Assembly: GCF_003334405.1 (NCBI RefSeq)
Contig: NZ_QOWM01000073.1
Length of the DNA stretch: 273 nt
Direction: 5' to 3' (one strand)
DNA from: Escherichia coli
GTDB taxonomy: Bacteria; Pseudomonadota; Gammaproteobacteria; Enterobacterales; Enterobacteriaceae
The translations under genes were made by a program, and so were the position numbers. This document shows, one piece after another, positions 1 to 273 of the stretch; positions within the stretch are counted from its first letter, which is position 1, and each line of letters opens with the position of its first letter. Under the pieces are notes generated by a model that worked only from the letters and a program-made list of their open reading frames with translations, had not been told where the DNA came from and did not search any database.

Positions 1-88
1 TGCGGTCCGTCTTCTCCGTCAGCCTGCCGTATTCATCGTGGCGGTAGACATAGTGCGCATCCTCCGCGATGCGGTTAACCACCCGTGC
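1..88 (-). CDS. Rhs-family YD-repeat core, downstream segment in a frame offset by one nucleotide from the upstream segment; continues beyond position 1
   Basis: Reverse-complement frame whose codons include plus 74-76 (AAC, Asn) translates to ARVVNRIAEDAHYVYRHDEYGRLTEKTDR. It is closed on its 5' side by TGA (complement of 89-91). The HDEYGRLTEKTD motif is classic Rhs core. No ATG in this frame within the window; a GTG (complement of 80-82) exists but I see no Shine-Dalgarno-like sequence upstream of it, so independent initiation is unsupported. Confidence 0.7.
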
Positions 89-228
89 TCATCATACTGC
101 CACTGCTCTGCCGGGTCGCCGTTCACCGTCCGGTGCGTGATGCGGTCCGACGCATCGTAGTGCCAGAGGGTGATAAGCCCCTCATCTTCACTCTGCGTGA
201 GTTTTCCGGTCAGGTCATAATGATAACG
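11..228 (-). repeat. Tandem YD-repeat coding units (protein-level periodic repeat of the Rhs shell), about 60 nt period
   Basis: Asp codons of the successive YD/HD dipeptides lie at reverse-complement positions 58-60, 118-120, 181-183 and 237-239 (spacings 60, 63 and 56 nt; the last is not a multiple of 3 because of the frame switch). Short DNA-level echoes of the repeat are also visible, e.g. TGCGGTCCG at 1-9 and 141-149, and GATGCGG at 68-74 and 139-145. Confidence 0.6.
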
Positions 229-273
229 TTGCGTCCGCCCGTCAAAGCCGCCCTGCTGTACCAGCCGGTCCAG
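19..273 (-). CDS. Rhs-family YD-repeat core protein, upstream (N-proximal) segment; 5' end lies beyond position 273; Rhs-like through about position 73, then 17 aberrant codons and a TGA stop (complement of 19-21)
   Basis: Reverse-complement frame starting at plus 273 is open for 84 codons and translates to LDRLVQQGGFDGRTQRYHYDLTGKLTQSEDEGLITLWHYDASDRITHRTVNGDPAEQWQYDEHGWLT, then ASRRMRTMSTATMNTAG and stop. Repeated Y/W-x-Y-D-x-x-(G/D)-(R/K)-(L/I)-T motifs at about 20-codon spacing (plus 193-228, 133-168, 73-105) are the YD-repeat signature. Paralog cannot be assigned from 273 nt. Confidence 0.8.
   Translation of the reverse strand: MDRLVQQGGFDGRTQRYHYDLTGKLTQSEDEGLITLWHYDASDRITHRTVNGDPAEQWQYDEHGWLTASRRMRTMSTATMNTAG
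73..80. other. Perfect 8-bp palindrome GGTTAACC (contains an HpaI recognition sequence GTTAAC) located exactly at the point where the Rhs reading frame switches
   Basis: Read directly: plus 73-80 = GGTTAACC, which is its own reverse complement. The last Rhs-like codon of the upstream frame (ACC, Thr, complement of 73-75) and the first Rhs-like codon of the downstream frame (AAC, Asn, complement of 74-76) overlap within it. Confidence 0.9.

What the first reader, a model, noticed from the sequence alone, without database searches (positions are those of the whole stretch)
73..80. Junction looks like an internal deletion joining two non-adjacent parts of the Rhs core, not a simple 1-bp indel
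From memory of enterobacterial Rhs cores, a motif like …WQYDE(R/H)GWLT… is followed by a different sequence, and a motif like …DNRIA(E/R)DAHY-x-YR-x-D-x-x-GRLTEKTD… lies well over a hundred residues further downstream. Here the two abut. The upstream frame is Rhs-like up to and including WLT, and the downstream frame is Rhs-like from NRIA onward. That pattern is what a deletion with its join inside the shared AACC (at most the full GGTTAACC) would produce. A 1-bp indel in contiguous sequence would instead predict Rhs-like sequence on both sides in one corrected frame. A join at a short identical sequence fits microhomology-mediated or repeat-mediated deletion. Because the site is GTTAAC (HpaI), an in vitro restriction-ligation deletion is also formally possible if the source is a construct.
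Basis: partly seen in the sequence, partly recalled or inferred. Interest (0 to 1): 0.65.

Follow-up and report, generated by a model that had tools for sequence, protein, structure and literature searches.

The report
Microhomology deletion in broken Rhs gene
The window is a piece of an already broken E. coli Rhs toxin gene in which 622 bases were lost between two copies of the 5-base sequence TAACC, an ordinary gene-decay event; the only mild curiosity is that both ends fall at spots where other strains' deletions also end.

Summary
The minus strand of the window encodes an Rhs core. The reading frame changes at GGTTAACC (73-80), and the two flanks are non-adjacent parts of the core.

Against an intact gene at the same locus (L001), the reverse-complemented window matches 5001-5201 and 5819-5895. 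That is a 622-bp deletion (3x207+1) with one retained copy of TAACC (window 73-77). The progenitor sequences are GGTTAACC and GGATAACC, a 7/8 match. The NCBIfam RHS_core profile places the two translated pieces at positions 669-735 and 941-965.

The window is 100% identical to the chromosome of E. coli strain C1 (NZ_CP195942.1), where PGAP already flags the gene as a frameshifted, incomplete pseudogene. The same gene is also split by an 18.2-kb Tn3-family resistance island. The junction occurs in 1 of 5,426 complete genomes.

An HpaI restriction-ligation origin is excluded, because the right breakpoint has no GTTAAC.

A split-probe survey found about 25 other independent deletions in Rhs cores, so this kind of decay is common.

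One lead remains. The left breakpoint lies at the centre of a perfect 16-bp palindrome used by two other independent deletions. The right breakpoint lies at a site used by two others. This clustering has P~0.001.

The finding is ordinary and of low interest.

The parts
78..273 (-). Upstream Rhs core segment (YD repeats). It equals intact gene L001 5001-5196, residues L665 to about W729/L730, reading ...WQYDEHGWL(T).
   Evidence: 100% identity to L001 5001-5201. RHS_core profile 669-735 and YD_repeat TIGR01643 at 18.4 bits against a cutoff of 15.8.
73..77 (.). Deletion junction. One retained copy of the 5-bp microhomology, TAACC on the coding strand and GGTTA on the + strand. The break can lie anywhere within it.
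   Evidence: The prefix match ends at L001 5201 and the suffix match starts at L001 5819, overlapping by 5 bases. 622 bp are deleted.
1..72 (-). Downstream Rhs core segment. It equals L001 5824-5895, (N)RIAEDAHYVYRHDEYGRLTEKTDR, residues 938/939-962, now out of frame with the upstream part.
   Evidence: 100% identity to L001 5819-5895. RHS_core profile 941-965.
73..80 (.). Residual 8-bp palindrome GGTTAACC (HpaI site at 74-79). It is what remains of the perfect 16-bp palindrome GGGTGGTTAACCACCC of the intact gene (L001 5190-5205).
   Evidence: Palindrome scan of the intact CDS: this is the only perfect 16-bp palindrome and the best one in the gene.
77..84 (-). Retained left half (GGGTGGTT on the coding strand) of the 16-bp palindrome, kept exactly up to its centre.
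56..73 (.). Small hairpin CGCATC-N6-GATGCG (L001 5823-5840), immediately 3' of the right breakpoint on the coding strand.
19..21 (-). Premature stop codon (TGA on the minus strand), reached 17 out-of-frame codons after the junction.
   Evidence: ORF 19..126 minus strand...WLTASRRMRTMSTATMNTAG*.

Best explanation
The window is the minus strand of the Rhs (YD-repeat, T6SS-associated) core gene at the vgrG / rhsE / ydcD locus of an E. coli chromosome. It is identical to strain C1.

The gene has lost 622 bp of its beta-cocoon-encoding middle. The loss lies between two copies of TAACC (GGTTAACC ... GGATAACC), and one copy is kept with no filler DNA. This is the signature of a RecA-independent short-homology deletion. 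Because 622 = 3x207+1, the frame shifts and translation would stop 17 codons later.

The gene was dead or dying anyway. In the same strain it is cut in two by an 18.2-kb Tn3-family multiresistance island with a 5-bp target duplication. The order of the two events is unknown.

The most likely mechanism is inferred, not shown. It is replication slippage, or template switching. A nascent 3' end ...GGTTAACC, stalled in the perfect 16-bp palindrome GGGTGGTTAACCACCC, re-pairs with GGATAACC 622 nt ahead. That second site sits in the short linker between two small hairpins. The secondary structure would explain why this 5-bp pair was used among thousands of equal ones.

What is shown: the deletion, its exact endpoints, the microhomology, the pseudogene state and the reuse of both endpoint sites by other strains' deletions. 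What is inferred: slippage, and the role of the hairpins.
For: - Identity: the reverse-complemented window matches NZ_CP195942.1 (L002 7843-8115) at 100%. The gene there is annotated 'RHS repeat-associated core domain-containing protein; frameshifted; incomplete'.
- Breakpoints: L001 5201 | 5819 with the 5-bp overlap TAACC, 622 bp deleted and no filler.
- Intact copies, including RhsD-annotated ones, keep the two flanks 622 bp apart at 100% identity in thousands of genomes.
- Family: RHS_core profile positions 669-735 and 941-965.
- The contiguous junction is found in 1 of 5,426 complete genomes.
- The gene is split by an 18,223-bp island carrying aph(6)-Id, aph(3'')-Ib, tet(B), TEM-1, Tn3 and ISKpn26, with the target duplication TATCC.
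- About 25 other independent deletions in Rhs cores have the same character. About half lie between 9-17-bp direct repeats and the rest have <=5 bp of microhomology.
- 5-bp direct-repeat pairs within 1 kb number 7,657 in this gene, so homology alone does not pick this pair.
- The left breakpoint is at the centre of the gene's best palindrome. FORC_081 (del 301, keeps the left half) and CFSAN061772 (del 535, keeps the right half) break at the same centre.
- The right site (5818-5826) is reused by MSB1_8G/1A (del 276) and NWU_1/3/4 (del ~613).
- Breakpoint clustering: 6 cross-event pairs within 3 bp against 1.08 expected, P~0.001.
- The hairpin-plus-direct-repeat slippage model, including slippage by E. 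coli Pol III in vitro, is summarised in PMC4134008.
Against: - The classical slippage model puts the pause at the base of a hairpin. Here the left breakpoint is at the centre of the palindrome, which fits a centre-directed break at least as well.
- In events found after the hairpin list was fixed, the general association of breakpoints with hairpins is weak: 5 of 32 against 2.1 expected, P~0.05. Three further events from offset probes did not hit hairpins.
- The stems are short (6-8 bp), and the folding z-scores of the regions are unremarkable (-0.6 to -2.4).
- No read-level data were available to confirm the C1 assembly.
- No second independent occurrence of this exact junction was found.
Confidence: 0.8

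Rival explanations
1. Same deletion, different mechanism. A double-strand break or nick forms at the exact centre of the 16-bp palindrome (GTT|AAC). It could come from hairpin or cruciform cleavage (SbcCD-type) or from attack by a GTTAAC-specific restriction enzyme in vivo. The break is then repaired by microhomology-mediated end joining to a resected or invaded site 622 bp away.
For: Three independent deletions (C1, FORC_081, CFSAN061772) are all compatible with a break at the same phosphodiester, 5197|5198. One side is kept exactly to the centre, on either side of it, and two of them have only 1-2 bp of microhomology. The centre is also the HpaI cut position.
Against: A 16-bp palindrome is far shorter than those known (from my own knowledge) to be SbcCD substrates. 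End joining after RecBCD resection would normally nibble both ends, but here one end is untouched. The right-hand hot spot (GGATAACCGC) has no restriction site or palindrome centre, yet behaves similarly. The other GTTAAC site in the gene (4760) was not a breakpoint in any event found.
Confidence: 0.15
2. The join is an artefact of the genome assembly of strain C1 (or of the source of the window), and the real gene is intact here.
For: The junction is seen in only one assembly and in no metagenome contig. Rhs genes are multi-copy and hard to assemble. Reads could not be inspected.
Against: Assemblers collapse long repeats and do not join at 5-bp identities. The flanks are 100% identical to the locus-specific allele. 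About 25 analogous deletions occur in independent complete genomes from many laboratories, and some are shared across projects, for example del 155 in F5, LT838200 and LT838196.
Confidence: 0.04
3. In vitro HpaI (GTT^AAC) restriction and religation in a cloned construct.
For: GTTAAC sits on the junction, and HpaI would cut at the palindrome centre.
Against: The right breakpoint in the progenitor is GGATAACC, with no HpaI or HincII site. The only sites in the gene are at 4760 and 5195, so a drop-out would be 435 bp upstream and not 622 bp downstream. The sequence lies in a natural chromosome with native flanks.
Confidence: 0.01
4. A simple 1-bp frameshift in contiguous Rhs sequence, or a natural shorter functional Rhs length variant.
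For: The frame changes at one point. Natural small length variants between Rhs paralogues do exist (15-18 bp differences).
Against: The flanks are 622 bp apart in intact genes. 622 is not a multiple of 3, and a stop follows after 17 codons.
Confidence: 0

Closest known systems
Rhs element core genes of E. coli (RhsD/RhsE clade; the vgrG-linked rhsE locus next to ydcD, ydcC and pptA)
   Same: The sequence is 100% identical to the core of intact copies on both sides of the junction. It matches the RHS_core and YD-repeat profiles. The locus in strain C1 has vgrG upstream and ydcD downstream, as described for rhsE in EHEC (PMC7216683).
   Different: It is not a functional member. About 207 codons of the shell are missing, the frame is shifted, a premature stop follows, and the gene is separated from its 5' end by an 18.2-kb transposon island.
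Spontaneous deletions between short direct repeats, helped by palindromes or hairpins (replication slippage: the Albertini/Miller lacI deletions and Glickman-Ripley from my own knowledge; the Viguera/Canceill/Ehrlich model as summarised in PMC4134008)
   Same: One copy of a short repeat is retained, there is no filler DNA, and inverted repeats lie at both endpoints. Other deletions in the same gene use 9-17-bp direct repeats.
   Different: The classical picture has one hairpin bracketed by the two repeats, with the pause at its base. Here each endpoint has its own small structure 622 bp apart, and the left break is at the palindrome centre.
Microhomology-mediated (alternative) end joining in E. 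coli (Chayot et al. 2010, from my own knowledge)
   Same: Short microhomology at the junction, and a deletion of hundreds of bp.
   Different: One flank is preserved exactly to the palindrome centre in three independent events, which is not what two-sided RecBCD resection predicts.

Membership tests
RHS element core protein (NCBIfam NF041261) / YD-repeat proteins | Sequence match to the RHS_core profile | tested here: met
   Piece 1 matches at E 3.5e-40 (profile 669-735) and piece 2 at E 1e-10 (profile 941-965). The intact reference scores 2766.9 bits against a cutoff of 2000. The fragments are necessarily below the whole-protein cutoff.
RHS element core protein (NCBIfam NF041261) / YD-repeat proteins | YD repeats (TIGR01643) | tested here: met
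   18.4 bits against a cutoff of 15.8, in residues 19-58 of the upstream piece.
RHS element core protein (NCBIfam NF041261) / YD-repeat proteins | Uninterrupted reading frame through the core, encoding a complete shell | tested here: not met
   A 622-bp deletion, a frameshift and a stop after 17 codons. PGAP flags the gene as frameshifted and incomplete. It is therefore a pseudogene remnant of the family and not a functional member.
RHS element core protein (NCBIfam NF041261) / YD-repeat proteins | Rhs-associated core domain (TIGR03696) followed by a variable toxin tip and an immunity gene | tested here: inconclusive
   This lies outside the window. It is present in the intact reference (residues 1181-1258). 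The C1 locus aligns to that reference at 99.6% from L001 5816 through ydcD, but it is out of frame with the upstream part.
Short-homology (slippage-type) deletion | The same short sequence at both progenitor breakpoints, one copy kept, and no inserted bases | tested here: met
   TAACC is at L001 5197-5201 and 5819-5823, and the junction carries one copy.
Short-homology (slippage-type) deletion | Secondary-structure-forming inverted repeats at or next to the endpoints | tested here: met
   A 16-bp perfect palindrome is at the left endpoint. The right endpoint lies between hairpins 5790-5817 and 5823-5840. Whether they are causal is not shown.
Short-homology (slippage-type) deletion | RecA independence and dependence on replication | not testable with these tools
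   Needs genetics.
Restriction-ligation (HpaI) construct deletion | Recognition sites at both progenitor breakpoints | tested here: not met
   GTTAAC occurs only at L001 4760 and 5195. The right breakpoint reads GGATAACC.

The most novel reading that the evidence does not exclude
Two specific sites act as structure-dependent deletion hot spots in E. coli Rhs cores. They are the centre of the perfect 16-bp palindrome GGGTGGTT|AACCACCC and the linker GGATAACCGC between two small hairpins. A third candidate is the foot of hairpin 3777-3796. At each site one flank is preserved to the nucleotide, while the partner site varies and needs almost no homology. That would point to a centre-directed break or arrest at very short palindromes in natural chromosomes, rather than classical repeat slippage.
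Probability: 0.3. Interest if true: 0.3.

Novelty: already known. Interest (0 to 1): 0.12.

Why it matters
In itself it matters little. It is one more decayed copy of a multi-copy toxin gene, already flagged as a pseudogene in the public annotation.

It also documents that Rhs cores shed internal segments often, with about 25 independent events among roughly 5,400 complete genomes.

If the reuse of breakpoints at the short palindrome holds up in larger data, Rhs genes would offer a natural population-scale spectrum for studying structure-driven deletion in E. coli.

Tried and rejected
- An exact scan of metagenome contigs for the 36-nt junction gave 0 hits, so there is no independent occurrence.
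- I searched for the transposon/rhs junction of C1 in other genomes to order the two events. It is unique to C1, so the order is undetermined.
- General test of 'breakpoints sit at hairpins', on events found after the hairpin list was fixed: 5/32 against 2.1 expected, P~0.05. Three more events from offset probes added no hits. I therefore do not claim a general rule, only reuse of specific sites.
- A longer imperfect homology between the two breakpoint regions (for example YD repeats in register) is rejected. Identity in register is 23/85, which is background level, apart from GG-TAACC.
- The many 'shortened' places at spans 795, 794 and 792 are natural 15-18-bp length differences between diverged paralogues and not deletions (L026). 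They were excluded.
- The + strand ORFs of the window (38-160 and 69-140) are antisense by-products of the Rhs frame and were not pursued.
- Breakpoints in diverged paralogues (F5446, 120899, KSC64, right end of NWU) are approximate, because L001 is not their progenitor.

Full report
**What is in the window**

The 273-nt window carries its coding information on the minus strand. Frame 0 of the reverse complement reads LDRLVQQGGFDGRTQRYHYDLTGKLTQSEDEGLITLWHYDASDRITHRTVNGDPAEQWQYDEHGWLT. It then degenerates into ASRRMRTMSTATMNTAG and a stop. Another frame reads (V)NRIAEDAHYVYRHDEYGRLTEKTDR from the AAC inside GGTTAACC (window 73-80) onward.

NCBIfam's RHS_core model (NF041261) places the first piece at profile positions 669-735 (E 3.5e-40). 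That piece also has a YD-repeat hit above cutoff. The model places the second piece at 941-965 (E 1e-10). The pieces are about 205 profile positions apart, so they are not adjacent.

At the DNA level, megablast against 5,426 complete E. coli genomes finds both halves at 100% identity in thousands of Rhs cores. These include copies annotated RhsD, and the two halves always span 895 bp rather than 273.

I took an intact gene at the same chromosomal locus as reference (L001, NZ_CP025842.1, CDS 3009-7232, 1407 aa, vgrG upstream and ydcD downstream). Reverse-complemented window positions 1-201 equal L001 5001-5201, and positions 197-273 equal L001 5819-5895. The overlap is TAACC, and the missing stretch is 622 bp = 3x207+1. 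The progenitor contexts are GGTGGTTAACC|ACCCTC and GGCCGGATAACC|GCATCG, so the 8-mers match 7/8. In the protein, residues 732 to about 937 are gone.

**Where it comes from**

A 76-nt probe across the junction is contiguous in exactly one complete genome, E. coli strain C1 from Panama City wastewater (NZ_CP195942.1). The whole window is 100% identical to it (L002 7843-8115). PGAP annotates the gene there as 'RHS repeat-associated core domain-containing protein; frameshifted; incomplete; missing N-terminus'.

The missing N-terminus is 18.2 kb upstream. The gene is split at L001 3885-3889 by a Tn3-family composite island with inverted terminal repeats and a 5-bp target duplication, TATCC. The island carries aph(6)-Id, aph(3'')-Ib, tet(B), TEM-1, ISKpn26 and ISVsa5.

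That transposon junction is also unique to C1, so the order of the two lesions cannot be told. The junction was absent from the metagenome contig collection.

**The HpaI idea**

The intact CDS has GTTAAC only at L001 4760 and 5195. The right breakpoint is GGATAACC. A restriction drop-out cannot give this junction, and the sequence sits in a natural chromosome.

**How common such events are**

I tiled the conserved core with split probes: two anchors more than 600 bp apart in the intact gene, so that only copies with a shortened interval are reported as one place. I mapped the junctions of the distinct variants. About 25 independent deletions of 63 to about 3,000 bp emerged.

Roughly half lie between direct repeats of 9-17 bp:
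- GCAGGGCGG gives del 117.
- CCGGACGGGCKGGAGA gives del 63.
- CGCTACCGCTACGAYGA gives del 447.
- The triple repeat GCCGCTGCYGCCG at 3380, 3490 and 3611 shows all three pairwise deletions, in strains 1303, SW0716xx and SCU-104.

The rest have 0-5 bp of microhomology, like the window. FORC_081 alone has three deletions in its copy. Internal deletion is thus a routine way for Rhs cores to decay, and the window's event is one instance.

**Why these two TAACC copies**

The gene contains 7,657 pairs of 5-bp direct repeats within 1 kb, and there is no extended homology in register (23/85). Homology therefore does not explain the choice.

A scan for perfect inverted repeats (arm >=6, loop <=6) finds only seven in the 4.2-kb CDS. 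The best is the perfect 16-bp palindrome GGGTGGTTAACCACCC at 5190-5205. The left breakpoint (5196|5197 to 5201|5202) covers its centre. The right breakpoint (5818|5819 to 5823|5824) lies in the linker between a hairpin at 5790-5817 and the hairpin CGCATC-N6-GATGCG at 5823-5840.

Both sites are reused by independent events:
- FORC_081 del 301 keeps the left half of the palindrome (break 5197/5198|5199, 1-bp microhomology).
- CFSAN061772 del 535 keeps the right half (break 5196-5198, 2-bp microhomology).
- MSB1_8G/1A del 276 ends at 5825|5826 with no microhomology.
- NWU_1/3/4 del ~613 starts at about 5819|5820.

A third site, the 5' foot of hairpin 3777-3796, is the right end of both the LD27-1-type del 382 and the large FORC_081 deletion.

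I ran a simulation that re-places each low-microhomology deletion within the range its probe could detect. It gives 1.08 expected cross-event breakpoint pairs within 3 bp against 6 observed (P~0.001).

The broader claim that breakpoints prefer hairpins is only weakly supported in the events found after the hairpin list was fixed (5/32 against 2.1 expected, P~0.05). Three later events did not add to it.

**Mechanism**

The features shown are one retained repeat copy, no filler DNA and structured DNA at both ends. These fit RecA-independent replication slippage or template switching between short repeats on hairpin-bearing templates. That process is documented for E. coli Pol III in vitro and summarised in PMC4134008. 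I commit to this as the most likely route.

One caveat applies. The break at the palindrome centre, with one flank kept to the nucleotide in three events, is not the textbook pause at the hairpin base. It leaves room for a centre-directed break followed by microhomology joining. Neither route can be told apart from sequence alone.

**Consequence**

No function is gained. The upstream reading frame would end 17 codons past the junction (stop at window 19-21). About 207 residues of the Rhs shell are missing, and the fragment has no promoter-proximal 5' end. The downstream toxin tip and ydcD remain 99.6% identical to the reference but are not in frame with anything upstream.

**Comparison and verdict**

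By sequence this is a remnant of the RHS core family (rhsD/rhsE clade, vgrG-linked as in PMC7216683). By state it is a pseudogene. The lesion is a member of the long-known class of short-homology deletions.

Novelty is 'already known', and interest is low (0.12). The only item worth a follow-up is the recurrent use of the short palindrome centre and of the GGATAACCGC site as deletion endpoints.

Noticed in passing
L001 5190-5205 (window 73-84 holds the remnant); L003 ~4040; L007 ~1693: Three independent deletions are all compatible with a break at the exact centre (GTT|AAC) of the gene's only perfect 16-bp palindrome. They are C1 del 622, FORC_081 del 301 and CFSAN061772 del 535. Two keep the left half and one keeps the right half.
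   Followed up: partly
L001 5818-5826 (window 68-77 region); L004 ~4391; L012 ~1579-1585: The right breakpoint site GGATAACCGC, a linker between two small hairpins, is also an endpoint of the in-frame del 276 in MSB1_8G/1A and of the del ~613 in NWU_1/3/4.
   Followed up: partly
L005 9270 / L002 6726 (NZ_CP195942.1 1,599,270-1,617,494): The same rhs gene in strain C1 is split by an 18.2-kb Tn3-family multiresistance island with a 5-bp target duplication, TATCC. The island carries aph(6)-Id, aph(3'')-Ib, tet(B), TEM-1, ISKpn26 and ISVsa5. The insertion is unique to C1 among complete genomes.
   Followed up: yes
L001 3380-3392, 3490-3500, 3611-3623 (L013, L014, L016): A triple direct repeat, GCCGCTGCYGCCG, lies in the N-terminal part of Rhs. 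All three possible pairwise deletions (231, 105 and 123 bp, all in frame) exist in different strains and are annotated as intact proteins.
   Followed up: partly
L003 (FORC_081) 2999-4040: One Rhs pseudogene carries three separate internal deletions (about 3 kb removing vgrG and the 5' end, about 372-384 bp at a 12-bp imperfect repeat, and 301 bp). This shows stepwise erosion at the rhsE locus.
   Followed up: partly
L004 1851-5798 (MSB1_8G, WP_201522831.1): An Rhs protein lacking 92 residues of the shell (in-frame del 276, no microhomology) is annotated as an intact protein. Whether such a shortened cocoon can fold or function is unknown.
   Followed up: no
L009 (strain F5, same Panama wastewater project as C1), also LT838200 and LT838196: A different frameshifting deletion (155 bp, L001 6018|6173, 1-bp microhomology) at the same locus is shared by genomes from unrelated projects. 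This suggests a circulating lineage with that allele.
   Followed up: no
L001 3776-3783 (L015 ~1099; L003 ~3004): The 5' foot of hairpin GAAGAGG-N6-CCTCTTC is the right end of two independent deletions. One is the LD27-1-type del 382, present in about 10 or more genomes. The other is the large FORC_081 deletion.
   Followed up: partly
window 38-160 and 69-140, + strand: Two short + strand ORFs (40 and 23 aa) lie antisense to the Rhs frame. They are most likely by-products of the GC-rich coding strand.
   Followed up: no
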